Assembly (NCBI GenBank): GCA_902628835.1 | Contig: CACOPD010000001.1 | Coordinates: 185,715 to 249,714 of the forward strand | Length of the DNA stretch: 64,000 nucleotides | Reading direction: 5' to 3' | DNA from: an uncultured Alphaproteobacteria bacterium | GTDB lineage: Bacteria > Pseudomonadota > Alphaproteobacteria > HIMB59 > GCA-002718135 | Part shown: positions 49,496-63,294 of the stretch, one piece after another | How positions within the stretch are numbered: the stretch's first letter is position 1 | How the letters are laid out: every line of letters starts with the position of its first letter | Program-made: the position numbers and the translations under genes | The notes under the pieces: model-generated | What the model saw: only the letters and a program-made list of their open reading frames with translations | Told to the model about the DNA's origin: nothing | Databases searched by the model: none

Positions 49496-50863
49496 ATGAT
49501 TGGATACCTGGGATTAGCACGAGAGACTTTTGATGTACCTTTTGCAATGTCTAAGTTTTTAGAAGGTAAAAAAGTTCTACGAAATATATTTACTGAAATA
49601 AAAGGAATTGATTATTTAATTACTAATAATGAATTATCAGATAAAGCATTTAAATATTTTAAAGATAATAATTTTAAAAAAATTATAATTTTTCAAACTA
49701 CATTTACAGATGCAAAATTTTTACTACACTTTGCTAGAAAGATAAATAAATCTTTGTGTATCGTTGCCTTTCCAGAACCACGAACTGGAAAGAGATTAAG
49801 ACTTAATTCAGTATGTGGATTAAATTTAGGAATGCACTCATTAATTAAAAATAATATTAATGCTGAATTCATATTATATAATAATCATAAAGACGTAGAA
49901 AAAAAAATTAAAAAATTTATTAATAAAAAAATTTATAGCAATAAAATAATTGAATGGAAACAGATTAGAAAAAAAAGTAATAAAAAAATAGATATAAAGA
50001 AACAAAAAATTGGACTTGTTGGTGAAAGACCTGAAGGTTTTGATACATGTGATTATTCATTATTAGAAGTTAGGAAAAAATTAAATTTTGATATTAAAAA
50101 AATAAAATTAAATGAACTATTCTCAGAAGCTAAAAAAATTAAAAAGTCAGTTTTAAATTCAACACAAATAAAAATTGAGAAAAATTTGAAGAATTCAAAA
50201 AAATTAAATCAATATGAATTAAAAAAAAGTATTTCAATATACCATGGATTAAATACACTGCACACAAAACACGATGTTCAAGCATTTGCAGTTAGATGTT
50301 GGCCAGAAATGTTTACACAATTTGGTTGTGCTTCTTGTGGTCCTATGGCTATGATGAATGAAAAAAAAATTAGCAGTGCTTGCGAAGCAGACGTTTTAGG
50401 AGGAATAAGTTGCAACATATTAAACCAATTAAACAATCAACCTTCTTTACTAGTGGATATTGTCGATATAGATGAAAAAGATAATTCTGTTGTTTTTTGG
50501 CATTGTGGGCTAGCGCCTCTTAGCATGTCTAAAAAAGGTGATGCAAAAGCGGATATACATTCTAATAGAAAAAAACCGCTACTTCACAATTTTGCTTTTA
50601 AACCTGGAGATATAACAATATTCAGAGTTTCAAAATCAGCAAGCAAATTAAAATTTTTTGTACTTAAGGGGAAAGTGATCAATAGGAAAAATTCATTTGC
50701 AGGAACTTCAGGTGTGGTCAGTTTTGGCAAAAATACAAAAAATAAAATAGAAAAAATGTTTAAAGGTGGACTTGAACATCACGTTGCTTTTACTTATGGT
50801 GACTATTATAACGAAATTGTTAATCTAGGTAATCAAATGAAAATTCCAACATACACAGTATGA
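49496..50863 (+). CDS. L-fucose/L-arabinose isomerase-family protein; candidate sulfoquinovose isomerase (SqvD-like)
   Basis: AVRCWPE, ACEADVLG, FWHCG and LEHH motifs; ATGA-coupled to the GH188-like gene. Confidence 0.75.
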   Translation: MIGYLGLARETFDVPFAMSKFLEGKKVLRNIFTEIKGIDYLITNNELSDKAFKYFKDNNFKKIIIFQTTFTDAKFLLHFARKINKSLCIVAFPEPRTGKRLRLNSVCGLNLGMHSLIKNNINAEFILYNNHKDVEKKIKKFINKKIYSNKIIEWKQIRKKSNKKIDIKKQKIGLVGERPEGFDTCDYSLLEVRKKLNFDIKKIKLNELFSEAKKIKKSVLNSTQIKIEKNLKNSKKLNQYELKKSISIYHGLNTLHTKHDVQAFAVRCWPEMFTQFGCASCGPMAMMNEKKISSACEADVLGGISCNILNQLNNQPSLLVDIVDIDEKDNSVVFWHCGLAPLSMSKKGDAKADIHSNRKKPLLHNFAFKPGDITIFRVSKSASKLKFFVLKGKVINRKNSFAGTSGVVSFGKNTKNKIEKMFKGGLEHHVAFTYGDYYNEIVNLGNQMKIPTYTV

Positions 50864-51960
50864 GCAAAAGTTTTAAATATGGGATAATAGGCGCTGGATC
50901 AATGGGTCGCGAACATATCAGAAATGTCAATATAATTGATAGAGCAGAAATTGTTGCTTTAAGTGATCCAAATAATGAATCAATTAATCAATCTTTATCG
51001 TTACTTAATAAAAAAGTTCCATGTTTTACAAACTATAATGAAATGATACAAGCTGATCTTGTTGATGGGTACATAATCTCTACTCCCAATTTTACTCACA
51101 TAGATGTATTAAAAGATGTAGTTAAAACAAAGAAACATATCCTAGTAGAAAAGCCGTTATGTACAACAATTAAAGATTGTATCGAATTCAGAGATTTAAC
51201 TAAAAATTATCCAGGTTTAATTTGGACCGCAATGGAATATAGATATATGCCCCCTGTAAAAAGAATGATTGATGAAATTCATAATAAAACAATTGGTAAT
51301 TTAAAAATGTTATCAATTAGAGAACACCGATTTCCTTTTTTAGTTAAGGTGAATAACTGGAATCGATTTGCAGAAAATACAGGAGGCACATTAGTTGAAA
51401 AATGCTGTCATTTTTTTGATCTAATGAGGTTAATTGTGAATAGTGAAGCGAAACAAGTTTATGCAAGTGGCAATCAAGATGTTAATCATTTAAATGAAAA
51501 ATATAACAATAAAACTCCTGATATTCTTGATAATGCCTATGTAATTGTTGATTTTCAAAATGGAGTTAGAGCTTTGCTTGATCTCTGTATGTTTGCTGAA
51601 AACTCAACAAATCAAGAGGAGTTATGTGCAGTTGGAGATATCGGTAAAATTGAAACTGCTGTACCTTCAGCTAGTTCAGGTAAAAACTCATCTGAATTAA
51701 GGATTGGATATCGAGGAAGAAATTTTGAAAATGGAAAAACTCTTAATGAGCTTGTGGAAGTTGATGAAGAGATTTTAAAAGTAGGAAATCATCATGGCTC
51801 TACATATTATGAGCATATTTCATTTCTTGATTCTATTAAAAACTCTAAACCAGCTGCTGTAAGTCTAAATGATGGTTTACAAGCAGTTGCTATTGGTGAA
51901 GCTGCCGAAATTTCTATAAAAGAAAATAGAATTGTGAGAATGGATGAATTTAAAATTTAA
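50860..51960 (+). CDS. Gfo/Idh/MocA-fold protein; probable NAD+-dependent sulfoquinovosidase (GH188/SqgA-like)
   Basis: GAGSMG, EKP, MEYRY, REHRFPFLVKV, EKCCHFFD, GNHHGSTY; sulfonate gene context. Confidence 0.82.
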   Translation: MSKSFKYGIIGAGSMGREHIRNVNIIDRAEIVALSDPNNESINQSLSLLNKKVPCFTNYNEMIQADLVDGYIISTPNFTHIDVLKDVVKTKKHILVEKPLCTTIKDCIEFRDLTKNYPGLIWTAMEYRYMPPVKRMIDEIHNKTIGNLKMLSIREHRFPFLVKVNNWNRFAENTGGTLVEKCCHFFDLMRLIVNSEAKQVYASGNQDVNHLNEKYNNKTPDILDNAYVIVDFQNGVRALLDLCMFAENSTNQEELCAVGDIGKIETAVPSASSGKNSSELRIGYRGRNFENGKTLNELVEVDEEILKVGNHHGSTYYEHISFLDSIKNSKPAAVSLNDGLQAVAIGEAAEISIKENRIVRMDEFKI

Positions 51961-51962
51961 AA

Positions 51963-52886
51963 TTAAGAAAAAAATTCGTTTGTTTTATTCATAATAAACT
52001 CACTTACTCTTGTATTGGATTCTTCTGTAACTCCTGCATTATGAGGTGATAAAATACAATTCATATCATTTGTAATACTTTTTAAAAATATTTTGTTTAC
52101 TGGCTCATGTTCATAAACATCTAATGCAAATCCTGAAATATAATTATTATTATATGCTTCAAGAAGATCAATTTCTTTTATAATTCCTCCCCTAGAAGAA
52201 TTAATTATAATTGGCTTATTATTCATTTTTTGAAATATTTTTTTATCAAATAAATATTTCGTTTCGTTATTTAATGGTACATGTATAGAAATTATATCAG
52301 CTAAATAAAGAATATTTTCAAAAGTTACTTTTTTAACATTATTTTCTTCCATTTCTTGAGAGGTTATAAAAGGATCAAATGCAATAGTAGTAACTTCAAA
52401 AGCATTTATAAGCTTTAAAACTTTTTTTGCTATATGACCAAATCCTATTAGTCCTAAAATTTTTCCCTTTAACTCATTCGTAGTAATTGACGTTCTAGGC
52501 CATTGTCCACTTTGTGTTTTTGCATTTATTAACTTTGTTTTCTTTAATAGGCTAAGTGAAGAGCTTATTACATATTCTGCTACAGAGTCAGCATTCATCC
52601 CAGTAGCTGGTTGAACAAATATATTATTTTGTTTACAGTATTCAGTGTCAATATTATCTAGACCTACACCAAGTCTACCAATGTACTTTAAATTTTCTGC
52701 TTTCTCTAAGATAGATTTATTTAAATTTGTTTTATTTCTTACAATTATTCCATCAAATTTATTAATTTCTTTTTTTAAATAATTAGAATTTTCCCAAATA
52801 TCTTTTTTATAGATTACATTAAAATCTTTACTTAATATTTTTAATGCTTCTTGATCTATAAATTCTGTAATTAAAATATTTATCAT
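51963..52886 (-). CDS. D-2-hydroxyacid dehydrogenase family; probable (S)-sulfolactate dehydrogenase (SlcC-like)
   Basis: ILITEFID start, VRNKT, GRLGVGLDNID, GFGHIA, SPHNAGVTEESNTRVS; same operon as comDE. Confidence 0.75.
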   Translation of the reverse strand: MINILITEFIDQEALKILSKDFNVIYKKDIWENSNYLKKEINKFDGIIVRNKTNLNKSILEKAENLKYIGRLGVGLDNIDTEYCKQNNIFVQPATGMNADSVAEYVISSSLSLLKKTKLINAKTQSGQWPRTSITTNELKGKILGLIGFGHIAKKVLKLINAFEVTTIAFDPFITSQEMEENNVKKVTFENILYLADIISIHVPLNNETKYLFDKKIFQKMNNKPIIINSSRGGIIKEIDLLEAYNNNYISGFALDVYEHEPVNKIFLKSITNDMNCILSPHNAGVTEESNTRVSEFIMNKTNEFFS

Positions 52887-53791
52887 TTAATTTTACTAAT
52901 TTTTATTTTTTTTGAAAATTTATTAACTAAACTAATTGTAGGTATTGAATATATGCCCCCTCTTTGCATACATTTTAAAGTTGCAGCAGCAGATGCAAAA
53001 ATAATACTTTCTATATTTGATTTATTTAGAGATAAGGCTGATGCGAAAGCTCCATGAAATACATCTCCTGCACAATTTGTTTCAACTGTTTTAACATTTG
53101 GAATTTTACAGTGATACAATGAATTGTTATCTACCCAAAGAACACCTTGGGAACCTATTGTAACTGCTACAAATTTTTGTGTTTCATTAAATATTTCAAA
53201 AAGAGCAGTTTTCATATTTGAATTTCGCTTATATGTTTTTAAACCCTCTTCAGAAAATATGGGATGGGAAGCATTTTTAACAATTTGAGATATATGTGAT
53301 GTTTTTTTAAAATTATCTAAATCAGCAACACATTTAATATTATTTTTGTTAGTCTTTTTGGCAATTTGAGTAGCTATTCTAATCCACCTCATATCTACTG
53401 CATAAATATCTTTTTTTCTAAAATCTAAATTTGGTATTTTCTTATAATTAAGTAACTTTGGATCATTATAAGCAGCTAGCAATCTTTCACCATTTATATC
53501 TTCAATTACAAAACTTTGGGAAGATTTACATTTTTTTATTGAAATAGATTTATTGATATTAATTTTAAATTTTTTAAATTCATTTTTTAAGAAAACAGAA
53601 GTGTCATCATCTCCAAATTTTCCAATAAATTCAGTATCACATCCCAATTTTTTAGCAGTAAATGCTGATACTGCTGCCGAACCGCCTAACCTTTTATCAA
53701 TACCTTTAGATAAAACTTTAATTGGTTTTTTTGGAAACTGATCTATCCTACTTATATTATCTAAAAATATTGATCCTACACAAATGATCAT
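52883..53791 (-). CDS. PfkB kinase; probable sulfofructose kinase (YihV-like)
   Basis: CVG..LD, FIGKFGDDD, KSSQS, DMRW, FSEEGL, AGDVFHGA and LKC..GG match E. coli YihV as recalled. Confidence 0.78.
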   Translation of the reverse strand: MIICVGSIFLDNISRIDQFPKKPIKVLSKGIDKRLGGSAAVSAFTAKKLGCDTEFIGKFGDDDTSVFLKNEFKKFKININKSISIKKCKSSQSFVIEDINGERLLAAYNDPKLLNYKKIPNLDFRKKDIYAVDMRWIRIATQIAKKTNKNNIKCVADLDNFKKTSHISQIVKNASHPIFSEEGLKTYKRNSNMKTALFEIFNETQKFVAVTIGSQGVLWVDNNSLYHCKIPNVKTVETNCAGDVFHGAFASALSLNKSNIESIIFASAAATLKCMQRGGIYSIPTISLVNKFSKKIKISKIK

Positions 53792-53801: not shown

Positions 53802-54371
53802 TTAGAGGTATTTAACTATACCTATAAACTTTCTAAATCTATCTCTGATCGTTATAGGGTTTAGAGGAATTGGATCAATTTTGACATTCCCAGAATTAAT
53901 TTTAGAGATAATTACGTAAGAATTATTTTGATCTTCAATAGCTTTTGATAATTCATTTACTGTTTCATCTCCAGAACATTCAACTACATTTTTACAACCA
54001 GCGCCTATTGCAACATCTTTTAAAGAGGTATTTTCATCAGTAAAAGTCCTTTGATCTCCTGTTGATCCATATGATCCATTATCAATAATTAATAATGTAT
54101 AATTTGATGGTGCTCTATTACCAATTGTTGCTAATGTATTCATATTCATTAAAACAGATCCATCACCATCTATACTAATAACATGTTTGTTTTGAGATAA
54201 TGACAAGCCCAAACCGATAGAAGAAGACAAACCCATACTGCCTAACATATAAAAAAAGTTTGGTTGATCATTAATTTTATATAATTCTTGAGATGGAAGA
54301 CCTATATTACAAATAACTAAGTTATCTTTAAGAATATTTTGTATTTTATTTAATAAGTCAAAGCGGTTCAT
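53802..54371 (-). CDS. comE: Sulfopyruvate decarboxylase beta subunit
   Basis: NIGLPSQELY, YMLGSMG, TPP motif GDGS...N, DNGSYGSTG. Confidence 0.85.
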   Translation of the reverse strand: MNRFDLLNKIQNILKDNLVICNIGLPSQELYKINDQPNFFYMLGSMGLSSSIGLGLSLSQNKHVISIDGDGSVLMNMNTLATIGNRAPSNYTLLIIDNGSYGSTGDQRTFTDENTSLKDVAIGAGCKNVVECSGDETVNELSKAIEDQNNSYVIISKINSGNVKIDPIPLNPITIRDRFRKFIGIVKYL

Positions 54372-54868
54372 TTATCATCTTTCATTAAATTGAAATCACA
54401 TAATATAGCAACTGGTGACTCAACAACTTTAGCATGTTTGCTAAATGTTGAAATTTTCTCAAGATCATTTTCTGAAGAACAATGCAACATAGGTATTCTT
54501 AAAGTTTGTAAAATATCTTCAGTTATTTTAGCCATTCCACCTTGTGCTCCTACTGGCTCACCTGGTGTACCTCTGTAACTAATTAGAAATACAACAGGCA
54601 TTTGATATAATTGTAATAAAGAAACAATTGCATTCACTGAATTTCCTATTCCTGTATTCTGCATCATTATACAAGGGAATTTGTTTCCTAAATAAGCTCC
54701 AGCACAGATACCCATACCTTCTTCCTCACGTGGTACAGCAGAATAGTAAACATCCTTATCTTTTTCAAGAATATCAATCATGTTAGCTAATAACTTACAA
54801 GGAACACTTAAGTAAAAATCTACACCACCCTTTTTTAAATTATCGATAATTTTTTTACTGATTTTCAT
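54368..54868 (-). CDS. comD: Sulfopyruvate decarboxylase alpha subunit
   Basis: SVPC, REEEGMGICAG, MQNTGIGN, SYRG; ATGA-coupled to comE. Confidence 0.85.
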   Translation of the reverse strand: MKISKKIIDNLKKGGVDFYLSVPCKLLANMIDILEKDKDVYYSAVPREEEGMGICAGAYLGNKFPCIMMQNTGIGNSVNAIVSLLQLYQMPVVFLISYRGTPGEPVGAQGGMAKITEDILQTLRIPMLHCSSENDLEKISTFSKHAKVVESPVAILCDFNLMKDDK

Positions 54869-54914: not shown

Positions 54915-55967
54915 TTATTTAAAATCATTTCTTAATTTTATTTTAGTGTTTGAAGTATATTTTTCACCTTTTTTTAATATAGTTGATGGAAAATTTGGTT
55001 GATTAATAGCATCGGGGAAAATTTGTGTCTCTAAACACATTCCATATTGTAAACCATAATTTCTATCATGTTTTCCGTTGTATGACTCCTTCATCATGTT
55101 ACCGGTATAAAATTGTATTCCAGGTTGATCAGTTGAGTATTCTACTCCCATGCCGGTACTTTTACTATAAATGGAAGCTATAGATTTATCAATTGAATGA
55201 TTTTTAAGAACATAATTATGATCGATCCCACCACTGTCTAAAAAAGTATTATTTATTTCAAACGAATTATTTAGATCATATTTTGTATTAACTACATCTA
55301 ATAGCTTGCCTGTAGGGATTGAGCCTTCATCAGTTTCACAAATTTGACTAGATGATATTTTAACAACATGTTCTGTAATATTTTTGTAATTATCTTTATG
55401 ACCATGAAAGTTCCAATAATTATGATTAGTTATATTAACAATAGTATCTTGATCTGTAGTAGCATGAAAAGAAATTAACATTTCGTTGTTATTATTTAAC
55501 TCGTAAATAGTTTTACAATCTAAGTTGCCAGGATAATTTTCTTCTAAATGATTAGAATAGTAAGTGAGCTCTACTTTTATGCTGTCACTTTTTTTATTTA
55601 TATTAGCTATTTGCCAAATCTTTTTATTGAAACCTTCTTTTCCACCATGAAGATGATCAGGAGCTGTGTTAGGATATAAATTATAATCCTCCCCATTAAG
55701 ACTAAATTTACTTTGCCCTATTCTATTACAAACTCTTCCAATAATTGAATTGAAATATCCATGAGCTTCCAGGCAATCATCTAAATTACCATAACCTAAT
55801 AATACGTCCTCTGTTTCAGAGTCATTAGAAGAAGTTGGAATACATACTTCACTTATATAGCCACCATATGTATAAAAGCTAAAACTGTAATTATTTGAGT
55901 TAATAATATTGACTATATCAATATCTAAACCTTTATCATTTTGAAGTTTGGTAATTTTATATTCCAT
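54915..55967 (-). CDS. Aldose 1-epimerase (GalM-type mutarotase), candidate SQ mutarotase
   Basis: IGRVCNRI, HLHGG, TNHNYWN, QFYTGN, CLETQ. Confidence 0.9.
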   Translation of the reverse strand: MEYKITKLQNDKGLDIDIVNIINSNNYSFSFYTYGGYISEVCIPTSSNDSETEDVLLGYGNLDDCLEAHGYFNSIIGRVCNRIGQSKFSLNGEDYNLYPNTAPDHLHGGKEGFNKKIWQIANINKKSDSIKVELTYYSNHLEENYPGNLDCKTIYELNNNNEMLISFHATTDQDTIVNITNHNYWNFHGHKDNYKNITEHVVKISSSQICETDEGSIPTGKLLDVVNTKYDLNNSFEINNTFLDSGGIDHNYVLKNHSIDKSIASIYSKSTGMGVEYSTDQPGIQFYTGNMMKESYNGKHDRNYGLQYGMCLETQIFPDAINQPNFPSTILKKGEKYTSNTKIKLRNDFK

Positions 55968-56866: not shown

Positions 56867-57855
56867 CTACAATTTGCACAACATTGATCAACCCAATGTT
56901 CTGGTTCAACCTCTATTAAACCCATTTCAGTTTTACCATTCCTGCAATTATCACATGGATTAGGACATCTTGTTCTAAATACACAACCTGAAGGAGGATT
57001 TAGTGCACTTGGTATCTCACCTTTTAGTTCTATCGCTCTTGATTTATTTTCTGGATCTATTGAAGGAATGGATGAGAGTAATGCTTTTGTGTATGAATGT
57101 TTAGGATTTTTAAATAATTTTCTTGATGGAGCCATCTCAACTATATGCCCTAAATACATTACAGCAACAATATCACAGACGTGAGCAACTACACTTAAAT
57201 CGTGACTGATAAATAAGTAAGTAAGATTAAGTTCATTTTGAAGTTGTTTTAAAAGATTTAATATATCTGCTTGTATTGATACATCTAATGCAGCAACACT
57301 TTCATCTGCAACAATAAATTTAGGATTGCTTACTAAGGCTCTTGCTATTGAAATACGCTGCCTCTGACCTCCAGAAAAGGCATGGGGAAATCTTCTTAAA
57401 TGTTCAAGATTTAATCTACATTTAGATGCTATATCTCTAACTCTATCATCAGTCTCTTGCCTTGAATTAGTTATTCTCATAACTTCTAAAGGTTCAGCAA
57501 TAATATCTCTGACCGTCATTCTTGGACTTAAAGCTGCATAAGGATCTTGAAAAATTAATTGTGCTTTTTTTCTATATTCTTTTAAATCTTGTTTATTGAT
57601 ATTTGTTAAATCATAATCTCTTTCATCATCATGAAAAATAACGTTTCCTGAACTAATTTTATTAGCTCCAAGTATTGCTCTTCCTAATGTTGTTTTTCCA
57701 GATCCTGATTCGCCGACTAATCCAAAAAATGATCCTTTTTTAATTTTTATATTAATATTGTTTACAGCATGTATTTTTTGTTTTTTTGAAATAAAGTTCT
57801 CTTGATAATCAAAATTAACTGAAACATTATTTACTGATATTAAATTCTCACTCAT
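56863..57855 (-). CDS. Peptide-type ABC ATPase (OppF-like)
   Basis: GESGSGKT, PHAFSGGQ, HSYT, Cys-rich C-terminus. Confidence 0.95.
   Translation of the reverse strand: MSENLISVNNVSVNFDYQENFISKKQKIHAVNNINIKIKKGSFFGLVGESGSGKTTLGRAILGANKISSGNVIFHDDERDYDLTNINKQDLKEYRKKAQLIFQDPYAALSPRMTVRDIIAEPLEVMRITNSRQETDDRVRDIASKCRLNLEHLRRFPHAFSGGQRQRISIARALVSNPKFIVADESVAALDVSIQADILNLLKQLQNELNLTYLFISHDLSVVAHVCDIVAVMYLGHIVEMAPSRKLFKNPKHSYTKALLSSIPSIDPENKSRAIELKGEIPSALNPPSGCVFRTRCPNPCDNCRNGKTEMGLIEVEPEHWVDQCCANCS
56901..56985. repeat. 85-bp exact direct repeat, copy 1 (3' end of the OppF-like gene)
   Basis: CTGGTTCAAC...TAAATACACA identical to 57896-57980. Confidence 0.95.
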
Positions 57856-57857
57856 AG

Positions 57858-58838
57858 CTAACCACAATTAATACAACATTGATCGACCCAGTGTCCTGGT
57901 TCAACCTCTATTAAACCCATTTCAGTTTTACCATTCCTGCAATTATCACATGGATTAGGACATCTTGTTCTAAATACACATCCAGAAGGTCTATCTAATG
58001 GACTTGGAATATTTCCAGGAATTGGTCTTAAAGGTGCATCTAGATTATTTACATCAGGAAGCGCTTCCAATAAGCCCTTTGTATAAGGGTGCTTTGGGTT
58101 TTTCAAAATTTTATTCACCGGTCCTTTTTCTACTACACTCCCAAGGTACATAACTGCAACATCATCTGCAATTTGAGCTATTACACCTAAGTCATGTGTA
58201 ATAAAAATAACACCCATTTGATATTCTTGAATAATATCTTTTATTAAATTGATAACTTGTGCCTGAATTGTAACATCTAAAGCAGTAGTAGGTTCATCAG
58301 CTAATAATAGTTTTGGCATTGTAGATAATGCCATAGCAATCATCGCTCTTTGACGCATACCTCCAGATAATTCGAATGCATATTGATTAAATCTTTTTTC
58401 AGCATCGGCAATTCCAACTCTTTGAAGCATATTTATAGAAATTTCTTTAGCTTCATTTTTATTAATATCTTTATGTATTAATAACTGCTCAACCATCTGA
58501 GAACCAATTTTTATTGCTGGAGCAAAACTCGCCATAGGTTCTTGAAATATCATTGATACTTTTCCACCTCTTATTTTTTTTAAATCATCCTTTGAAGTAA
58601 ACCTTAAGACATTTTCATCATCTAAAATTATTTCAGCATCATTGTTATAATTTGTATTACCTGGATTTAATTGCATAATTGCTTTTGCTGTAACTGATTT
58701 ACCAGATCCAGACTCACCAACTATACCGAGTACCTTGCCTTGATCTAATGATAATGAAATATTTTCAACTGCTGTAATTCTACCTTCATCAGTATCAAAT
58801 TTAACATCTAAGTTTTTTACCTCTAATAAGTGACTCAT
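57858..58838 (-). CDS. Peptide-type ABC ATPase (OppD-like)
   Basis: GESGSGKS, ELSGGMRQR, HPYT, Cys-rich C-terminus. Confidence 0.95.
   Translation of the reverse strand: MSHLLEVKNLDVKFDTDEGRITAVENISLSLDQGKVLGIVGESGSGKSVTAKAIMQLNPGNTNYNNDAEIILDDENVLRFTSKDDLKKIRGGKVSMIFQEPMASFAPAIKIGSQMVEQLLIHKDINKNEAKEISINMLQRVGIADAEKRFNQYAFELSGGMRQRAMIAMALSTMPKLLLADEPTTALDVTIQAQVINLIKDIIQEYQMGVIFITHDLGVIAQIADDVAVMYLGSVVEKGPVNKILKNPKHPYTKGLLEALPDVNNLDAPLRPIPGNIPSPLDRPSGCVFRTRCPNPCDNCRNGKTEMGLIEVEPGHWVDQCCINCG
57896..57980. repeat. 85-bp exact direct repeat, copy 2 (3' end of the OppD-like gene)
   Basis: Identical to 56901-56985. Confidence 0.95.
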
Positions 58839-58839
58839 A

Positions 58840-60000
58840 CTACTTTACCTTATGAGGATCAGCAGCATCACGTAATCCATCACCTACGTAAACAAATGTT
58901 AAAATTAATACGACTAAGAAAAATACAGGAATAAAATACCATTGATAATTTAAAAGTACATCTGCCTTGGTTGCATTCTGCAAAAGTACACCTAGAGAAT
59001 TTACGGGTTCTCTCAAACCTAATCCTATAAAACTTAAAGCAGTTTCAGATAATAACATGTATGGAAAACTAATTACTAAATCGACAATAATATAGCTTGT
59101 GAAACTTGGTAATAAGTGCCTTATAATAATATGAGTAGATGATGCTCCACATAGTTTTGCAGCAAGAATATATTCTTGGCTTCTTTCACTAAGTAGATGA
59201 GTTCTTACTCTTCTTGCAAGTGTCGGCCACGAAATTAATCCAAGTAAACATGATATAAAAAAGAAACGCAATTCAGAACTCCATTCTAATGGCGCAAAGG
59301 CAGCAAGACACATAAATAAAGGTATTGGTGGTACCGTTCGAATTGCATCAGTAAACATCTGCAATACACTATCAATCCATCCACCATAATAACCTGATAT
59401 CCCACCTATAATTAGCGATAGTACAAATGATATAAAAACTCCAAGTGTGCCTACAGCTAGCGAAATGTAAATTGCACTTAAGGTTCTACTAAATAAATCT
59501 TTTCCTGCCTTATCTGTTCCAAATATATGGATTCCACCCTCTTCAACACCGAATAAATGAGTATTAAATGTAAAACCTGGAATTTTAAAATCTAAAATCT
59601 TTCCTGGAAGATTTATATTAAAATCAAAAACTTTATACTCCCATCCTTCAACAAAGAAATAAACATATCTTCTTTTTTCAGTATCAACTTTATAAACCCA
59701 TCTGAAATTTGTATCTGCTCCTCTATACTTTTCTAATGTGTGTAGAAATGGTCTAGCTGAAAATCCGTTATCATCCCAAAACATTGGAATTTGAGGTGCT
59801 CCATTTTCATAATCTTTATCTCTTCCTTTAATTGTTGGATCGTAAGGAGATAGAAAATCTGCAAAAAGACTACAAATAATCATAAATAGTAAAATAGATC
59901 CAGCAATCATAGCAGATCTATTTCCAAAAAAGCGTGTTCTTACTAACTGCATCTGCGTTGCAGTATAATAAGCCTCTTTTTTTTGATTACTAACCTCCAC
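58840..60000 (-). CDS. Peptide-type ABC permease (OppC-like)
   Basis: FGTDKAGKD, EYILAAK..G, RHLLP, GDGLRDA. Confidence 0.93.
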   Translation of the reverse strand: MEVSNQKKEAYYTATQMQLVRTRFFGNRSAMIAGSILLFMIICSLFADFLSPYDPTIKGRDKDYENGAPQIPMFWDDNGFSARPFLHTLEKYRGADTNFRWVYKVDTEKRRYVYFFVEGWEYKVFDFNINLPGKILDFKIPGFTFNTHLFGVEEGGIHIFGTDKAGKDLFSRTLSAIYISLAVGTLGVFISFVLSLIIGGISGYYGGWIDSVLQMFTDAIRTVPPIPLFMCLAAFAPLEWSSELRFFFISCLLGLISWPTLARRVRTHLLSERSQEYILAAKLCGASSTHIIIRHLLPSFTSYIIVDLVISFPYMLLSETALSFIGLGLREPVNSLGVLLQNATKADVLLNYQWYFIPVFFLVVLILTFVYVGDGLRDAADPHKVK

Positions 60001-61003
60001 CCATAACTCCTTTTCTTATTCTTGGATCAATTATAGCTAAAATAATATCCGTTATAAAATTAACAAAAACAATTGTTGCTGTTAAAAGAAAAATAATTGC
60101 GCCTGCTAATTGCTGATCATTTGATCTGGCTAAAGCTTCAATCAATAGTGCGCCAGCTTCCGTAAGAATTAAAATTAATGCTACAATTGGTAATGCACTA
60201 AATATTCGATTAAGGTCAAAACCTATAGAATTAATAACTGGACCTAAAGAATGTTTTGCAGGATATCTCCACAACAAACTCATCCCTGATATTCCTCTAG
60301 CTCTTGCTGCCATTACATATAATTTATCATTTTCATCTAGCATCAGTGCTCTAACTGTCTGAAGAGCAAAAGCTGTTGCGTTCCATCCTAAAACAAAAAT
60401 TGGAAGCCAAGCTCTACTTAAAAAATCAAATAATTTTGCTGATGACCAAGGTTCATTTTCATATTCTTGAGAGAACAAACCTGTCATTGTATCTCCATAA
60501 TAAACAGTCATAAAAAGCATAATACAAAGAGCTACTAAAAAATTGGGAAGGGCAATTCCAAGATAACTAATAAATTTAAGTGTATTATCTAATGACGCAT
60601 ATCTTGTCGTGGCTGATATGATCCCAACTGGTATTGCAATTAAATATGAAAATATTAGTGCAACCAAACATATCGTTAGAGATAAAGTAAATCTTCCACT
60701 TAATAACTCATTAATATTCATTCTTAAAATACAACTGTCACCAAAATCTCCATTAAAAACTATATTGGAAACCCATTTGCCATATCTATACAAAAAAGGT
60801 TTATCTAGACCTAAACGAATTTTTTCTTTTTCTATATCTTCATAAGTTATTTGTGATCCTTGTGTATTTTTAAATGCTAAATATCTTTCAGCACAAGTTC
60901 CAGGAACTAATTCCATTAACGAAAAAACAATAAAGCAAACAAGTAACAAAGTTATAATTGCAAGTCCTGCCCTTGTGAGAGTAAATTGTATAAAATTAAT
61001 CAT
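59990..61003 (-). CDS. Peptide-type ABC permease (OppB-like)
   Basis: LGLDKP, GDFGDS, YVMAARARG, IDPRI. Confidence 0.93.
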   Translation of the reverse strand: MINFIQFTLTRAGLAIITLLLVCFIVFSLMELVPGTCAERYLAFKNTQGSQITYEDIEKEKIRLGLDKPFLYRYGKWVSNIVFNGDFGDSCILRMNINELLSGRFTLSLTICLVALIFSYLIAIPVGIISATTRYASLDNTLKFISYLGIALPNFLVALCIMLFMTVYYGDTMTGLFSQEYENEPWSSAKLFDFLSRAWLPIFVLGWNATAFALQTVRALMLDENDKLYVMAARARGISGMSLLWRYPAKHSLGPVINSIGFDLNRIFSALPIVALILILTEAGALLIEALARSNDQQLAGAIIFLLTATIVFVNFITDIILAIIDPRIRKGVMGGG

Positions 61004-61039
61004 ATTTAATAATTAGGAGACAAGAATAATTAAAAAAAG

Positions 61040-61068: not shown

Positions 61069-61089
61069 TCTATTATTTATTGAGTTAAA

Positions 61090-63144
61090 TTACTCGTCTA
61101 ACCACCATTGAGTAGCTAGGTATGGGTATGTTCTATAATACTCATACGAAGTAGTTTTAAACTGCGTAAAGTTTTTCAAAGCATTTCTGTGATAAGTCGG
61201 GAAAGGTGCTTTCACCGTACCAATCAATAGACTTTGCTCTGTTAACATTGTTGCAATTTTTTCTCCCCACTCATTAGACTCAGCAGTACCAAGTGCATAA
61301 GATTGGAATTTATCAATTCCATCACTTAAGTCATATACCCACTGAGGTGGTTTAGTACCTTCGTCACCATTACTATCAATGTATGCTGCCCAATCTAAAC
61401 CTTGTGTGTGGTTAAAGTAGTTACCAAAAGGAGGTTTAAATGTTTCTGGGTTACCAGCAACAATTGCTAATGGTTGACCTTTGTCCCAAACGTGAACATC
61501 AAGTTGGTTTGCAGCTTGCGAACCACGATATTCATCTGGAGTTACCTCTTTAAAAGTAGTTTTCACTCCTACTTCATTAAAGTATCTTGCAACAAGTTCA
61601 ACTTCAACACCACCAATACCTTGAGTAGCGTAGTCTATGTTAATAGCTAGAGCATCACCATTTGGTAATTCTCTAAATCCATCACCATCAACGTCTTTTA
61701 ATCCTACTTCATCAAGAAGAGCATTTGCTCCATCTGGATCGTATTGAGTCATATGCATTTTTATACTTTCAGGAACGAAGTCAGGTGCAGGAGAAAATCC
61801 TACAAACTGCTCAACTTTACCTAAGCCGTAATATGCAACTTCGTTGATCTCATCTCTATTCATCGCAATTGACATTGCTTGACGGAAACGAATATCTCCA
61901 TAGACTTTACGTTTTTCAGGATCAGGATGTGTTACATTAAAACTAAATAATGCAGCACCACAACCTGGATTGATTTGAACTTGATATCCACCAGACTCAG
62001 CACCATCAAGTAATTGAGGAGCAGACTCTAATTGAACAGACTGTGATTTATAATCAACTTCACCATTAACAAGTTTTAACAATCTTATTTCATTTTCATT
62101 GATGTATCTTTCATTTTGATAATCAATGTATGGTAATTGATTTCCAGCTGTATCAACTTGGAAAAAGTATGGGTTAGCTGCATAGACTCTACCTTCAGTA
62201 GTATCCTCAATAGTCATATAAGCTTCTAATGAAGGATAAGCTGCATAAGGTAATCCAGCAACTAGATCTGGTTTAGCTAGTAAAGGAGTTGGAGTATCAG
62301 TCCAACCAGAGTTACCATAATATGCTGCTAGAGCATCATAACCATTTTCAAATCCTAAAGCTTGTGCATTTGCATCAGCATTTGAATCAATTTCCGGATG
62401 GAATTGTTCTAGGAAATGTGAAGGCATGAAAAACTGGTTATATGACCATGCAATAGTTGCAGTTAAACCAGGAAATGGAGATGGCAAATTAAATCTTACT
62501 GTTTGATCATCAATTACATCAACAGTCATTGGCTCACCACCAACTAATAGATATGGATATGGTTTTTCACGAATATTTGTATTCATCATCAAATCTTCGT
62601 ACCAAAACTCAACATCTCTTGCCACAAAAGGTTCCCCGTTTGACCACTTGTGACCTTTACGTAACATGAATGTTAAAGTAGTGAAATCATCATTCCACTC
62701 ATAATCTTTAGCAACGTTTGGAACGATTGTAGTTAAGTCATCTGCGAAACGTAATAAGTTAACGTGTCTTGTAGATAACATGTCTGAAGTTCCAGCTTCA
62801 GTTGCGTTAGATAAGAAGTTTATTGTATTTCCATATTTACCAATAGACTCATACGGCACTACAACAAGAGGTTCATCAGGTAATCTATCCTCAACTGAAG
62901 GAAGGCTTCCTGGGTTACCTTGTATTGTAGCGTTAATGCTTGCAATATTAGGGTTATCTGAAAACTTCATTGTACAATCAGCTGCACTTTCATATTCTGA
63001 TAACTCATATTGCTGAGGGTATTTTCCGCCTGTTTGTCCGTCGTTCATTGTTGAACCTTGACAATGACCATCTGCAAAAGAGCTTCCACTCCATACAAAA
63101 GTTGCGGAAGAAAATACTAACGCTATGAATAGTTTTTTAAACAT
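61090..63144 (-). CDS. Large family 5 ABC substrate-binding protein (sugar-binding-type subgroup)
   Basis: Signal peptide, LPSVEDRLP, LRKGHKWSNG, NPYFFQVDTAGNQLPYID; AAGGAG RBS. Confidence 0.9.
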   Translation of the reverse strand: MFKKLFIALVFSSATFVWSGSSFADGHCQGSTMNDGQTGGKYPQQYELSEYESAADCTMKFSDNPNIASINATIQGNPGSLPSVEDRLPDEPLVVVPYESIGKYGNTINFLSNATEAGTSDMLSTRHVNLLRFADDLTTIVPNVAKDYEWNDDFTTLTFMLRKGHKWSNGEPFVARDVEFWYEDLMMNTNIREKPYPYLLVGGEPMTVDVIDDQTVRFNLPSPFPGLTATIAWSYNQFFMPSHFLEQFHPEIDSNADANAQALGFENGYDALAAYYGNSGWTDTPTPLLAKPDLVAGLPYAAYPSLEAYMTIEDTTEGRVYAANPYFFQVDTAGNQLPYIDYQNERYINENEIRLLKLVNGEVDYKSQSVQLESAPQLLDGAESGGYQVQINPGCGAALFSFNVTHPDPEKRKVYGDIRFRQAMSIAMNRDEINEVAYYGLGKVEQFVGFSPAPDFVPESIKMHMTQYDPDGANALLDEVGLKDVDGDGFRELPNGDALAINIDYATQGIGGVEVELVARYFNEVGVKTTFKEVTPDEYRGSQAANQLDVHVWDKGQPLAIVAGNPETFKPPFGNYFNHTQGLDWAAYIDSNGDEGTKPPQWVYDLSDGIDKFQSYALGTAESNEWGEKIATMLTEQSLLIGTVKAPFPTYHRNALKNFTQFKTTSYEYYRTYPYLATQWWLDE

Positions 63145-63293: not shown

Positions 63294-63294
63294 T

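What the first reader, a model, noticed from the sequence alone, without database searches (positions are those of the whole stretch)
49496..63144. Candidate new sulfoquinovose pathway: hybrid sulfoglycolysis wired to sulfopyruvate decarboxylation
Seen: two convergent units, (+) isomerase and GH188-like glycosidase, and (-) family-5 ABC, DMT, mutarotase, comD, comE, YihV-like kinase and SlcC-like dehydrogenase. Known: sulfo-EMP organisms usually excrete DHPS or sulfolactate, and different bacteria degrade these via SlcC-ComDE-Xsc. Inference: SQ-glycoside -> SQ -> sulfofructose -> sulfofructose-1-P -> [aldolase, SLA dehydrogenase] -> (S)-sulfolactate -> sulfopyruvate -> sulfoacetaldehyde, i.e. 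both tiers of SQ breakdown in one streamlined marine cell. I do not recall this gene combination being described. The bracketed steps are not in the window.
Basis: partly seen in the sequence, partly recalled or inferred. Interest (0 to 1): 0.92.

Follow-up and report, generated by a model that had tools for sequence, protein, structure and literature searches.

The report
Sulfoquinovose breakdown cluster joined to desulfonation
A small-genome marine alphaproteobacterium carries, in one tightly packed gene cluster, the enzymes to free and split the abundant plant and algal sulfosugar sulfoquinovose together with the enzymes that carry the leftover sulfonate on towards sulfite release, two jobs that are usually thought to be shared between different bacteria.

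Summary
Window 49496-63144 holds an SftI-type isomerase and a GH188 SqgA on the + strand. Converging on them is an 11-gene unit: family-5 ABC importer, DMT, mutarotase, ComD, ComE, YihV-like kinase and SlcC-like 2-hydroxyacid dehydrogenase.

- **SqgA:** matches the solved sulfoquinovosidases at E 2.7e-109, and 8 of 8 checked sugar- and sulfonate-binding residues are kept.
- **ComDE:** both subunits pass the curated sulfopyruvate decarboxylase cut-offs.
- **Rest of the genome:** Xsc, Pta, TauE and a GabD-type aldehyde dehydrogenase are present. No dedicated sulfofructose-phosphate aldolase was found.
- **Linkage in the family:** SqgA and ComE lie within 6 kb in 63 of the 67 genomes that have both.
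- **Independent support:** three sampled genera of an unrelated alphaproteobacterial family with larger genomes carry a colinear nine-gene operon. It adds the two missing steps, an aldolase and a GabD-like dehydrogenase.

Two caveats remain. Twenty family genomes keep the importer-mutarotase-ComDE operon without any sulfoquinovose genes, so these genes sit in a replaceable island. The aldolase step in this genome is unassigned.

No held paper describes the combination. I rate it a new variant of a known kind, with interest about 0.7.

The parts
49496..50863 (+). SftI/SqvD-type sulfoquinovose-sulfofructose isomerase candidate
   Evidence: NF048012 scores 285.3 bits over residues 2-453 of 455, below the cut-off of 700. 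Pfam gives a weak Fucose_iso_C match. No solved relative was found. The gene sits next to SqgA in 11 of 12 fetched relatives and in the family f90 operons.
50860..51960 (+). GH188 NAD+-dependent sulfoquinovosidase (SqgA) homologue
   Evidence: E 2.7e-109 to 8qc3 (ArSqgA) and 1e-107 to 8qc2 (FlSqgA). The residues equivalent to K107, Y136, R166, L170, K172, E189, H193 and H321, as defined in PMC10755693, are all kept in the alignment.
51963..52886 (-). SlcC-like (PGDH-clade) D-2-hydroxyacid dehydrogenase, a candidate (S)-sulfolactate dehydrogenase
   Evidence: PF02826 and PF00389 match. TIGR01327 PGDH scores 247 bits, below the cut-off of 454. SlcC falls in or beside the SERA clade (PMC6303947). 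A 94%-identical metagenome protein carries the JGI name '(S)-sulfolactate dehydrogenase'. The gene overlaps the kinase gene by 4 nt.
52883..53791 (-). YihV-like PfkB kinase, a candidate sulfofructose kinase
   Evidence: The best solved relative is 7ag6, sulfofructose kinase, at E 1.9e-42; the next best is at 9.8e-27. D13, K27, S95, R138 and the GXGD Asp244 are kept, and N109 aligns with Ala.
53802..54371 (-). ComE, sulfopyruvate decarboxylase beta subunit
   Evidence: TIGR03846 scores 223.6 bits against a cut-off of 221.5. The phosphonopyruvate decarboxylase model scores only 133 bits.
54368..54868 (-). ComD, sulfopyruvate decarboxylase alpha subunit
   Evidence: TIGR03845 scores 161.7 bits against a cut-off of 147.95. 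No PEP mutase was found in the genome.
54915..55967 (-). aldose 1-epimerase, a candidate sulfoquinovose mutarotase
   Evidence: PF01263 at E 1.9e-71. The galM models score below their cut-offs.
55967..56866 (-). EamA/DMT transporter, substrate unknown
   Evidence: PF00892. The gene is conserved at this position in relatives.
56863..61003 (-). Opp/Dpp-type ABC ATPases (OppF- and OppD-like) and permeases (OppC- and OppB-like)
   Evidence: Pfam matches to ABC_tran with oligo_HPY, and to BPD_transp_1 with OppC_N. A family-5 ABC system also follows ComE in G474.
61090..63144 (-). long (684 aa) family-5 solute-binding protein, a candidate importer for the sulfoquinovose glycoside
   Evidence: PF00496 at E 5.2e-52. 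This gene has the highest depth of the whole region in RNA-library contigs of 4 runs.
44516..49327 (-). CUT1-type sugar ABC transporter (ATPase, two permeases, SBP_bac_1 binding protein) that travels with the sulfoquinovose genes
   Evidence: Pfam. The binding protein is 80% identical to the one next to aldolase-isomerase-SqgA-kinase-2HADH in a Piscirickettsiaceae MAG, and 89-92% identical in G107 and G034.
42132..44519 (-). GH31 glycosidase of unknown specificity; membership in the pathway is uncertain
   Evidence: PF01055. The best models and structures are alpha-glucosidases, and YihQ scores only 84.6 bits. The SqgH clade could not be tested.
63283..63999 (+). sulfatase (PehA-like) that runs off the window end; kept beside the binding-protein gene in relatives, role unknown
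   Evidence: PF00884. The full-length gene scores 415 bits on NF045661, below the cut-off of 900. [quoted passage not shown]

Best explanation
The cluster encodes uptake and catabolism of a sulfoquinovose glycoside, most likely sulfoquinovosyl glycerol. It uses a hybrid sulfo-EMP-type upper pathway that is wired directly into sulfopyruvate decarboxylation.

Proposed order of steps:
1. An ABC system imports the glycoside (the family-5 system, the CUT1 system, or both).
2. The GH188 SqgA releases sulfoquinovose.
3. The mutarotase and the SftI-type isomerase produce sulfofructose.
4. The YihV-like kinase makes sulfofructose-1-phosphate.
5. An aldolase that is not encoded in the cluster gives DHAP and (S)-sulfolactaldehyde. 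Candidates are the housekeeping class II FBA or another aldolase.
6. A GabD-type aldehyde dehydrogenase encoded elsewhere gives (S)-sulfolactate.
7. The SlcC-like 2-hydroxyacid dehydrogenase gives sulfopyruvate.
8. ComDE gives sulfoacetaldehyde.
9. Xsc and Pta, both encoded on the same contig, give acetyl-CoA and sulfite, and TauE can export the sulfite.

What is shown: the family memberships, the conserved residues, the gene order, the conservation across genomes, and the presence of the downstream genes.

What is inferred: every substrate, the identity of the aldolase and of the sulfolactaldehyde dehydrogenase in this genome, the importer's ligand, and the fate of the sulfoacetaldehyde.
For: - **Gene identities:**. 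SqgA keeps 8 of 8 checked sulfoquinovose- and sulfonate-binding residues. The kinase keeps K27, R138 and D244. ComD and ComE score above their curated cut-offs.
- **Operon structure:** kinase and 2HADH sit at the 3' end of the ComDE unit, with a 10-nt gap and 4-nt overlaps.
- **Linkage in the family:** SqgA and ComE lie within 6 kb in 63 of the 67 family genomes that have both. Isomerase, SqgA, 2HADH, kinase, ComE and ComD are all present in 11 of 12 fetched relatives, at 46-98% identity.
- **Independent family f90:** G474, G599 and G696 have the colinear operon Kin-Aldolase-Isomerase-SqgA-Mutarotase-GabD-like ALDH-2HADH-ComD-ComE. G706 has Kin-Aldolase-Isomerase-2HADH-ComD-ComE.
- **Downstream genes:** Xsc scores above its cut-off in G000 and in 5 of 5 other cluster-bearing genomes tested. 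Pta, Ald, an aminotransferase and TauE are present.
- **Candidate sulfolactaldehyde dehydrogenase:** the GabD-type SSADH at C2:107915-109294 is 50% identical to the in-operon ALDH of G474.
- **Chemistry:** SlcC is a 2HADH of the SERA clade, and sulfolactate resembles 3-phosphoglycerate (PMC6303947).
- **Possible expression:** RNA-library contigs from 4 seawater studies cover 25-30 of 30 bins, with very uneven depth. This fits transcription but does not prove it.
Against: - **Aldolase gap:** no dedicated SFP aldolase was found in G000. The LacD/DUF2090-like aldolase that sits in the cluster elsewhere occurs in only 9 of 116 family genomes, and in 0 of the 11 high-quality ones. G000's LacD paralogue is 29% identical to it and lies in a Dak-kinase cluster. 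That paralogue occurs in only 15 of 116 genomes.
- **ComDE operon without sulfoquinovose genes:** the operon of family-5 ABC, DMT, mutarotase and ComDE is kept without SqgA in 20 of 116 genomes. All 6 of 6 fetched cases lack the whole segment equivalent to window 39440-53791. In 0 of 5 such genomes is an isomerase homologue found anywhere. ComDE therefore has a role that does not need the sulfoquinovose genes, and the adjacency could partly reflect a hot spot for island insertion.
- **Weak membership scores:** the isomerase is far below the equivalog cut-off (285 against 700). ComE passes its cut-off by only 2 bits. YihV's N109 is Ala here.
- **Genome quality:** the genome is 84% complete.
- **No biochemistry** has been done on any of these proteins.
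Confidence: 0.62

Rival explanations
1. There are two independent modules that are merely neighbours. The family-5 ABC-DMT-mutarotase-ComDE operon serves some other substrate, such as imported C3 sulfonates or an unknown glycoside. A replaceable sulfoquinovose island has landed beside it, and the island's own pathway ends in excreted sulfolactate or DHPS.
For: - 20 of 116 family genomes have ComE but no SqgA.
- In 6 of 6 fetched cases the operon abuts the same flanking genes, with the island absent.
- 0 of 5 such genomes have an isomerase homologue.
- The island comes in several versions, with SqgA at 61-70% identity and different CUT1 systems, while the ComDE and Opp genes stay at 78-99%.
- Replaceable islands at fixed positions are described in streamlined HIMB59-type genomes (PMC10734472, passages).
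Against: - Kinase and 2HADH are joined to ComE by a 10-nt gap and 4-nt overlaps, on the same strand.
- In no genome are SqgA and ComE on one contig but far apart (0 of 63).
- Unrelated f90 genomes place 2HADH-ComD-ComE inside a single co-directional sulfoquinovose operon in a different gene order. G107 has ComD-ComE-2HADH next to SqgA even without the kinase and isomerase.
- An island pathway that ended at sulfolactate would not need an SlcC-like dehydrogenase.
Confidence: 0.15
2. The substrate is not sulfoquinovose. It is another anionic or sulfonated sugar glycoside, such as sulfofucose taken through a tagatose-type route, or a glucuronoside.
For: - Where an aldolase is present in the cluster, it belongs to the LacD (tagatose-bisphosphate) / DUF2090 group and not to YihT. 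Its best solved relative is 8tnf at E 1.2e-75, while YihT scores 63 bits.
- The isomerase scores far below the SftI cut-off.
- The kinase lacks N109.
- UxuA, UxuB-like and UxaC-like genes and a non-YihQ GH31 sit in the same island.
- Sulfofucose catabolism exists (PMC12421959).
Against: - SqgA keeps every residue that contacts sulfoquinovose in the ArSqgA complex, including the C4-OH ligand E189 and the sulfonate ligands R166 and K172.
- FlSqgA was inactive on glucosides and on a glucuronide (PMC10755693).
- ComDE, the 2HADH and Xsc only make sense for a sulfonated C3 product, which rules out a plain glucuronoside for the core genes.
- YihT is itself a member of the DeoC/LacD family.
Confidence: 0.1
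3. The upper pathway is as proposed, but the cell does not desulfonate the product. Sulfoacetaldehyde is reduced or oxidised and leaves as isethionate or sulfoacetate, for instance through the DMT protein. The organism would then convert a C6 sulfonate into an excreted C2 sulfonate.
For: - Xsc lies 26 kb beyond the window, outside the cluster, beside genes unrelated to sulfonates.
- A DMT transporter of unknown direction sits inside the operon.
- The sulfo-TK pathway is known to end in isethionate or sulfoacetate (PMC12890257).
Against: - Xsc scores above its cut-off in G000 and in 5 of 5 other carriers tested.
- Pta, Ald and an aminotransferase lie 2-6 kb beyond the window end.
- No sulfoacetaldehyde reductase or dehydrogenase gene was seen in the cluster.
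Confidence: 0.1
4. The ComDE-like pair is a different thiamine-dependent 2-oxoacid decarboxylase, for example phosphonopyruvate decarboxylase, and has nothing to do with sulfonates.
For: ComE passes its cut-off by only 2 bits, and both subunits also match TIGR03297 phosphonopyruvate decarboxylase, at 133 and 99 bits.
Against: - Both subunits score higher on the sulfopyruvate models, and above their cut-offs. So does G474's ComD.
- No PEP mutase was found in G000.
- The pair sits next to an SlcC-like dehydrogenase in several lineages.
Confidence: 0.03

Closest known systems
Sulfo-EMP and sulfo-EMP2 sulfoglycolysis (E. coli YihS/V/T/U; Arthrobacter with SqgA and GabD; Bacillus SqvD/SqiK/SqiA)
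   Same: The upper steps follow the same logic: sulfoquinovosidase, mutarotase, isomerase to sulfofructose, kinase, aldol cleavage to DHAP and sulfolactaldehyde. The kinase is of the YihV type, the isomerase of the SqvD/SftI type and the glycosidase is GH188. Hybrid combinations of sulfo-EMP and sulfo-EMP2 parts are already noted in PMC12890257.
   Different: The known pathways stop at excreted DHPS or sulfolactate. Here an SlcC-like dehydrogenase and ComDE follow in the same transcription unit. Where an aldolase is present in the cluster, it is of the LacD/DUF2090 type, neither YihT (63 bits) nor a class II SqiA. In this genome, and in most of its genus, no dedicated aldolase is found at all. 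The importer is a family-5 (Opp/Dpp-type) ABC system, not YihO/P, SmoEFGH or a TRAP system.
Tandem sulfofucolytic ED plus SlcC/ComC-SuyAB pathway of Paracoccus wurundjeri (PMC12421959)
   Same: One cell couples cleavage of a sulfosugar to mineralisation of the C3 sulfonate, through sulfolactaldehyde, (S)-sulfolactate and sulfopyruvate, with an SlcC-type dehydrogenase. That paper calls such coexistence 'unusual'.
   Different: The sugar there is sulfofucose and the upper route is of the ED type. Sulfopyruvate is reduced to (R)-sulfolactate and cleaved by SuyAB. Here the upper route is of the EMP type and the exit is decarboxylation by ComDE towards Xsc.
Second-tier sulfolactate/DHPS degradation through ComDE and Xsc (Roseovarius nubinhibens, Ruegeria pomeroyi; proposed for SAR11)
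   Same: The sequence sulfolactate to sulfopyruvate (dehydrogenase), to sulfoacetaldehyde (ComDE), to acetyl phosphate and sulfite (Xsc) is the same. It is described as a route for imported C3 sulfonates (PMC13335735 and PMC12330013, passages; the Denger 2009 title is listed).
   Different: In those organisms the substrate is imported DHPS or sulfolactate made by other organisms. Here the genes are fused into a sulfoquinovose-glycoside cluster.
[quoted passage not shown]
   Same: These are marine bacteria with SqgA, or with the GH31 SqgH, that mineralise sulfoquinovose completely in one cell.
   Different: They cleave the C-S bond of the intact sugar with oxygenases. No SmoC- or SqoD-type gene was seen in this cluster, and sulfur would leave only after C-C cleavage and decarboxylation.

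Membership tests
GH188 NAD+-dependent sulfoquinovosidase (SqgA) | Two-domain Gfo/Idh/MocA fold with an N-terminal NAD-binding Rossmann domain | tested here: met
   PF01408 at 8.4e-23 and PF02894 at 1.8e-29.
GH188 NAD+-dependent sulfoquinovosidase (SqgA) | Close sequence relationship to characterised SqgA enzymes | tested here: met
   E 2.7e-109 (368.7 bits) to ArSqgA 8qc3 and 1e-107 to FlSqgA 8qc2. The next unrelated oxidoreductase is at 2.8e-27.
GH188 NAD+-dependent sulfoquinovosidase (SqgA) | Catalytic and sugar ligands K107, Y136, E189, H193 and H321, and sulfonate ligands R166, L170 (backbone) and K172 (ArSqgA numbering, PMC10755693) | tested here: met
   All 8 are identical in the HMMER alignment. 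The numbering was mapped by me, taking an offset of 13 between chain index and residue number. E163, which the paper also names, could not be mapped unambiguously.
GH188 NAD+-dependent sulfoquinovosidase (SqgA) | NAD+-dependent hydrolysis of sulfoquinovosyl glycerol or PNP-sulfoquinovoside | not testable with these tools
   This needs an enzyme assay.
SftI/SqvD sulfoquinovose isomerase (NCBIfam NF048012) | Score above the curated equivalog cut-off | tested here: not met
   285.3 bits against 700, although the alignment runs end to end (2-453 of 455). G474's in-operon isomerase likewise scores 252 bits. I treat it as a homologue, not a proven member.
YihV-type sulfofructose kinase | PfkB fold with the GXGD catalytic Asp (D244) and the sugar ligands D13 and S95 | tested here: met
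   PF00294 at 2.5e-35. D13, S95 and the AGD motif are kept in the alignment to 7ag6.
YihV-type sulfofructose kinase | KRN sulfonate triad K27-R138-N109 (PMC8006165) | tested here: inconclusive
   K27 and R138 are kept, and N109 aligns with Ala. The uncharacterised Agrobacterium kinase 2rbc also has the K and the R.
Sulfopyruvate decarboxylase ComDE | Alpha and beta subunits above the TIGR03845 and TIGR03846 cut-offs | tested here: met
   161.7 against 147.95, and 223.6 against 221.5. The beta margin is only 2 bits.
Sulfopyruvate decarboxylase ComDE | Not part of a phosphonate biosynthesis context (PEP mutase) | tested here: met
   TIGR02320 gave no match in G000, which is 84% complete.
(S)-sulfolactate dehydrogenase SlcC | D-2-hydroxyacid dehydrogenase of or beside the SERA/PGDH clade, without an ACT domain | tested here: met
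   PF02826 and PF00389 match, the protein is 307 aa, and the best model is PGDH at 247 bits, below the cut-off of 454. SlcC's placement comes from PMC6303947.
(S)-sulfolactate dehydrogenase SlcC | Direct similarity to Chromohalobacter SlcC, and activity on (S)-sulfolactate but not on 3-phosphoglycerate | not tested
The only hint is an automatic JGI name on a 94%-identical protein.
Complete sulfo-EMP-type pathway | A sulfofructose-1-phosphate aldolase (class I YihT or class II SqiA) | tested here: not met
   The aldolases found in G000 are:
- a DeoC in a deoxyribose cluster;
- an IolJ-like class II aldolase in an inositol cluster;
- a LacD paralogue in a Dak-kinase cluster, which has no YihT match at E 0.001;
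- a housekeeping-type class II FBA.

An in-cluster LacD/DUF2090-like aldolase exists in 9 of 116 relatives, in L059 and in the f90 operons.
Sulfoacetaldehyde acetyltransferase Xsc | Score above the TIGR03457 cut-off somewhere in the genome | tested here: met
   953.1 bits against 676.4 at C1:275450-277177. Also above the cut-off in G474, G080, G061, G107 and G002.

The most novel reading that the evidence does not exclude
A whole genus of streamlined, low-GC pelagic alphaproteobacteria mineralises sulfoquinovosyl glycerol inside single cells. The route would be a so far undescribed sulfo-EMP-SlcC-ComDE-Xsc pathway with three new features:
- a family-5 ABC importer for the sulfosugar glycoside;
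- either a third, LacD/DUF2090-type class of sulfofructose-phosphate aldolase, or, in most species, cleavage by a housekeeping aldolase;
- carriage on a replaceable genomic island docked onto a ComDE operon.

If so, a large share of open-ocean sulfoquinovose turnover bypasses the accepted relay between primary and secondary degraders.
Probability: 0.45. Interest if true: 0.82.

Novelty: new variant of a known kind. Interest (0 to 1): 0.72.

Why it matters
Sulfoquinovose compounds are estimated at about 1.5 Pg C per year in the sea (PMC12780224, abstract).

The current picture has three parts:
- Alteromonadaceae and Roseobacteraceae are named as the main marine consumers (PMC12780224, section 9).
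[quoted passage not shown] Here the two tiers are co-inherited in one transcription unit. This holds across at least 63 species-level genomes of a small-genome marine lineage, and in several genera of a second family.

If the cluster works as proposed, it would:
- add a new consumer guild and a new pathway topology to marine sulfur and carbon budgets;
- give a marker gene set (SqgA, SlcC-like 2HADH and ComDE together) for meta-omics;
- point to a candidate third type of sulfofructose-phosphate aldolase and a new type of sulfosugar importer.

The f90 genomes with few contigs may be cultured strains. If so, the pathway is directly testable.

Tried and rejected
- **GH31 (42132-44519) as a YihQ-type sulfoquinovosidase: rejected.** The alpha-glucosidase models and structures score highest, and YihQ scores 84.6 bits. 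Membership of the newer SqgH clade could not be tested, because neither a sequence nor a structure was available.
- **DeoC-family aldolase next to an aldehyde dehydrogenase (C1:51.8-54.2k) as SFP aldolase plus sulfolactaldehyde dehydrogenase: rejected.** It is a deoxyribose cluster with deoC, ribokinase and a pyranase.
- **C6 class II aldolase: not taken up.** It lies in an iolB/iolC cluster.
- **C6 LacD paralogue: unlikely.** It lies with Dak1/Dak2, a HIBADH, an enolase-family gene and a TIM-barrel isomerase. It is 29% identical to the in-cluster aldolase and is present in only 15 of 116 genomes.
- **Class I FBA (PF00274): none found in G000.** The family search found nothing, but its controls did not ring either, so I repeated the question with tblastn, which also found nothing.
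- **Transaldolase:** the genome has a single short-type TAL. A sulfo-TAL route is not excluded, but it would leave the conserved kinase unexplained.
- **ComDE as a split sulfo-TK transketolase: rejected.** The Pfam and TIGR assignments do not fit.
- **Aldehyde dehydrogenase scan:** my E-value threshold was too strict, so 5 of the 8 aldehyde dehydrogenases returned no family. Only the GabD, PhnY and MmsA types were named.
- **Sulfite dehydrogenase:** one Oxidored_molyb ORF of 306 aa was found. Whether it is a sulfite dehydrogenase was not tested.
- **Organism name:** public relatives are titled only 'uncultured Alphaproteobacteria bacterium'. Assignment to AEGEAN-169/HIMB59 rests only on genome size and GC and is not established.
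- **RNA evidence:** all four runs laid were contigs of RNA libraries. DNA carry-over is not excluded, depth cannot rank genes, and bins without cover mean nothing.
- **Papers and supplements:** Liu et al. 2023 (ISME J) was not held. Supplements, including Table S3 and Fig. 5c of Kaur et al. 2023, which shows a Jannaschia faecimaris 'sulfo-EMP' cluster, could not be seen. They may already depict ComDE neighbours without comment.

Full report
**What is there.**

The window is G000:C1:185715-249714, from a 1.48-Mb assembly of 28 contigs that is 84% complete. Its GC content is about 29%.

Between 49496 and 63144 the ORFs are packed without free space.

On the + strand there are two genes:
- An isomerase at 49496-50863. 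It matches NCBIfam NF048012, 'sulfoquinovose isomerase SftI', end to end. The score is 285 bits, well below the equivalog cut-off of 700.
- A Gfo/Idh/MocA protein at 50860-51960. It overlaps the isomerase gene by 4 nt.

Converging on these, with 2 nt between the two stop codons, is a run of eleven genes on the - strand. They are separated by at most 86 nt or overlap. In order they are:
- a family-5 solute-binding protein;
- OppB-, OppC-, OppD- and OppF-like genes;
- an EamA/DMT transporter;
- an aldose 1-epimerase;
- ComD and ComE;
- a PfkB kinase;
- a D-2-hydroxyacid dehydrogenase.

**Gene identities.**

*SqgA.* The Gfo/Idh/MocA protein matches PDB 8qc3 and 8qc2 at E 2.7e-109 and 1e-107. The next unrelated structure is at 2.8e-27. 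These entries are ArSqgA and FlSqgA, the founding GH188 NAD+-dependent sulfoquinovosidases (PMC10755693, main text read). In the printed alignment, the residues that contact sulfoquinovose in ArSqgA are all identical in the window protein: K107, Y136, E189, H193 and H321, and the sulfonate ligands R166, L170 and K172. I mapped the numbering myself, taking an offset of 13 between chain index and residue number.

*Kinase.* Its best solved relative is E. coli sulfofructose kinase YihV (7ag6, E 1.9e-42). D13, K27, S95, R138 and the catalytic GXGD aspartate are kept. N109, the third member of the K27-R138-N109 sulfonate triad (PMC8006165, passages), aligns with alanine.

*ComDE.* ComD scores 161.7 bits against a cut-off of 147.95, and ComE scores 223.6 against 221.5, on the sulfopyruvate decarboxylase models. 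Both score lower on the phosphonopyruvate decarboxylase model. No PEP mutase was found in the genome.

*2-hydroxyacid dehydrogenase.* It is a short protein of 307 aa of the PGDH type. Chromohalobacter SlcC, the (S)-sulfolactate dehydrogenase, falls in or next to that clade (PMC6303947, passages). A metagenome protein that is 94% identical carries the automatic JGI name '(S)-sulfolactate dehydrogenase'.

**Rest of the genome.**

- **Xsc** is present at C1:275450-277177, 26 kb beyond the window end (953 bits, cut-off 676).
- **Taurine-type module.** Two to six kb beyond the window end lie alanine dehydrogenase, an omega-aminotransferase, a Pta-type phosphotransacylase and a second DMT gene.
- **TauE.** There are three genes, one of them at window 72-881.
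- **Aldehyde dehydrogenases.** Among nine full-length genes (12 matches, three of them partial), one is a GabD-type SSADH at C2:107915-109294 (TIGR01780, 729 bits, cut-off 646). Characterised sulfolactaldehyde dehydrogenases are of the GabD type (PMC11131964 and PMC8873060, passages).
- **Aldolase.** No dedicated sulfofructose-phosphate aldolase was found. The DeoC/LacD and class II matches belong to a deoxyribose cluster, an inositol cluster, a Dak-kinase cluster and a housekeeping-type class II FBA.

**Conservation in the family.**

In the 116 genomes of the same family, SqgA is found in 70 and ComE in 87. Each is found in 7 of the 11 high-quality genomes.

- 67 genomes have both genes.
- In 63 of these the two genes are within 6 kb of each other.
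- In the other 4 they are on different contigs, mostly with SqgA near a contig edge.
- In none are they on one contig but far apart.

I fetched 12 loci that span SqgA identities of 61-71%. Eleven have isomerase, SqgA, 2HADH, kinase, ComE and ComD in the same arrangement, at 46-98% identity. One of these, G061, has in addition a LacD-type aldolase directly upstream of the isomerase. The twelfth, G107, is from another genus. It has GH31-ComD-ComE-2HADH next to SqgA, without a kinase or isomerase.

The 13 closest public records are titled 'uncultured Alphaproteobacteria bacterium'. Where their contigs reach far enough, they show the same gene order.

A Piscirickettsiaceae MAG has DeoR, LacD-type aldolase, isomerase, SqgA, kinase and 2HADH, then glycerol kinase. 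It also has a CUT1 binding protein that is 80% identical to the window's, but no ComDE.

**Independent support.**

I searched an even sample of 401 genomes of the class. ComE was found in 12 and SqgA in 30. Seven genomes had both, and the two genes were adjacent in three: G000, its congener G080, and G474.

G474 is a 4.2-Mb genome from another family (f90); the fetched locus has 55% GC. It carries a co-directional operon in this order:
- kinase;
- LacD-type aldolase (PRK12858, 337 bits);
- SftI-like isomerase (252 bits);
- SqgA;
- mutarotase;
- GabD-type aldehyde dehydrogenase (TIGR01780, 645 bits; 50% identical to G000's GabD);
- PGDH-like 2HADH;
- ComD (160.6 bits, cut-off 147.95) and ComE;
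- two family-5 binding proteins and Opp-like genes.

I then sampled 251 genera of that family. The aldolase occurs in 20, ComE in 64 and both in 6. They are adjacent in 4: G474, G599, G696 and G706.

- G599 and G696 repeat the nine-gene order.
- G706 has kinase-aldolase-isomerase-2HADH-ComD-ComE.
- G689 has the first seven genes, with ComE 38 kb away.

Xsc scores above its cut-off in 5 of 5 carriers tested.

They also show the link between sulfoquinovose genes and ComDE arising in a different gene order in an unrelated lineage.

**Complications.**

First, 20 of the 116 family genomes have ComE but no SqgA.
- In 6 of 6 fetched cases, the operon of family-5 ABC, DMT, mutarotase, ComD and ComE is intact.
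- In those cases ComE abuts the UxuA / arginase-family / AhpC genes that lie at 33-39 kb in the window.
- In 0 of 5 such genomes is an isomerase homologue found anywhere.

So window 39440-53791 behaves as a replaceable island. It holds the UxuB-like and UxaC-like genes, the GH31, the CUT1 ABC system, the isomerase, SqgA, the 2HADH and the kinase. It is docked onto an older ComDE operon, and it comes in several versions. What a mutarotase-ComDE-importer operon does on its own is unexplained.

Second, the aldolase is missing in most carriers.
- The in-cluster aldolase occurs in only 9 of 116 family genomes, and in none of the 11 high-quality ones.
- G000's LacD paralogue occurs in only 15 of 116.

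Most carriers must therefore cleave sulfofructose-phosphate with a housekeeping or unknown enzyme, or use a route I have not seen.

The in-cluster aldolase is itself unusual. Its best solved relative is a DUF2090 protein (8tnf, E 1.2e-75), and YihT scores only 63 bits. DUF2090 has been proposed as an inositol-pathway aldolase (PMC9007349, passages).

**Expression.**

Four seawater RNA-library runs from four studies gave contigs at 90-100% identity. They cover 25-30 of the 30 bins of window 44500-63999. Depth is sharply uneven: up to 1225 over the family-5 binding-protein gene and 17-62 over comD, against low single figures in many other bins. That unevenness is what transcripts would give. However, the tool warns that contigs cannot prove transcription or rank genes.

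**Literature.**

- Full-text searches for sulfoquinovose with 'sulfopyruvate decarboxylase' gave 2 papers.
- Sulfoquinovose with sulfopyruvate and sulfoacetaldehyde gave 8.
- Sulfoquinovose with 'sulfoacetaldehyde acetyltransferase' gave 13.
- Sulfoquinovose with SAR11 gave 15.
- SqgA alone gave 29.

None of these describes this combination. Where ComDE appears, it is listed as a step of second-tier DHPS or sulfolactate degradation.

Two 2026 reviews list the pathways without it (PMC12890257 and PMC13436972, passages). One of them states that sulfoglycolysis and desulfonation are rarely in one organism and rarely co-inherited.

The nearest precedent is the sulfofucose ED plus SlcC/ComC-SuyAB tandem in Paracoccus. 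Its authors call such coexistence unusual (PMC12421959, Discussion part 1).

The two papers on AEGEAN-169/HIMB59 that I searched contain no word beginning 'sulfo'.

Caveats on the literature:
- Liu et al. 2023 (ISME J) was not held.
- Supplements were closed.
- Fig. 5c of Kaur et al. 2023 shows a 'sulfo-EMP' cluster from the rhodobacter Jannaschia faecimaris (legend). It may be an operon of the G474 type, drawn without comment on ComDE.

**Verdict.**

It is a hybrid sulfo-EMP-type route, built from GH188, an SftI-type isomerase and a YihV-type kinase. It is extended in the same transcription unit by an SlcC-like dehydrogenase and ComDE, and it feeds Xsc.

It is assembled from known enzyme families, so I rate it a new variant of a known kind, not categorically new.

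Its interest lies in four things: the topology, the lineage, the island structure, and the candidate new aldolase and importer types.

Noticed in passing
window 38263-42126 (with GH31 at 42132-44519): A hexuronate-type trio sits beside the GH31 and the CUT1 ABC system: UxuA (PF03786), a mannitol-dehydrogenase-family (UxuB-like) gene at 39440-40873, and a 400-aa ORF at 40924-42126. The ORF has no Pfam or NCBIfam hit, but its nearest ESM-atlas clusters (0.99) are named 'glucuronate isomerase family'. The GH31 may therefore act on an anionic glycoside other than sulfoquinovose.
   Followed up: partly
G000:C1:251598-255956 and 275414-277183 (2-27 kb beyond the window end): A taurine-type module lies here: alanine dehydrogenase, an omega-aminotransferase (AptA model, 588 bits, cut-off 500), a Pta-type phosphotransacylase and a DMT transporter. 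Xsc lies further on, next to a choline-dehydrogenase-like gene and uvrC.
   Followed up: partly
window 72-881 (-): This is a TauE/SafE-family sulfite exporter gene, one of three in the genome.
   Followed up: no
L052:4847-6911, and the same place in L049, L053, L057, L058, L063, L067, L069 and L070: Some relatives carry two extra Gfo/Idh/MocA oxidoreductase genes inserted between the OppF-like gene and the DMT gene of the operon. The window lacks them.
   Followed up: no
G000:C1:109569-116662 and L064:11413-17579: A sugar operon of CUT1 ABC, FBA, Gfo-family oxidoreductase and aldo/keto reductase is syntenic between G000 and G107. It uses a class II FBA in G000 and a class I FBA (PF00274) in G107, where it directly abuts SqgA. 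This is a non-orthologous aldolase displacement and a possible link to the missing aldolase step.
   Followed up: partly
G000:C6:12873-19501 (L024): A cluster of an SBF transporter, an enolase-superfamily protein, a HIBADH-type dehydrogenase, a LacD-like aldolase, Dak1/Dak2 and a xylose-isomerase-like TIM barrel. It looks like a tetrose/tetritol-type or similar route. The LacD-like aldolase gene is found in only 15 of 116 family genomes.
   Followed up: partly
window 61090-63144 and 48077-49327: In RNA-library contigs of four seawater runs, the two solute-binding-protein genes have by far the highest depth of the 19.5-kb stretch: up to 1225 and 79, against single figures nearby.
   Followed up: partly
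L059:9096-10595 and 12672-14657: The Piscirickettsiaceae MAG's sulfoquinovose-type cluster includes glycerol kinase, which fits a glycerol-bearing glycoside such as sulfoquinovosyl glycerol. It also has a GH42 beta-galactosidase nearby.
   Followed up: no
G000:C1:50944-53304 (L021:6944-9304): In the deoxyribose cluster the aldehyde dehydrogenase ORF is 786 aa long and gives two separate Aldedh matches. It may be a fusion or a duplication.
   Followed up: no
window 1-33000: I did not annotate this part. Only its ORF list was seen.
   Followed up: no
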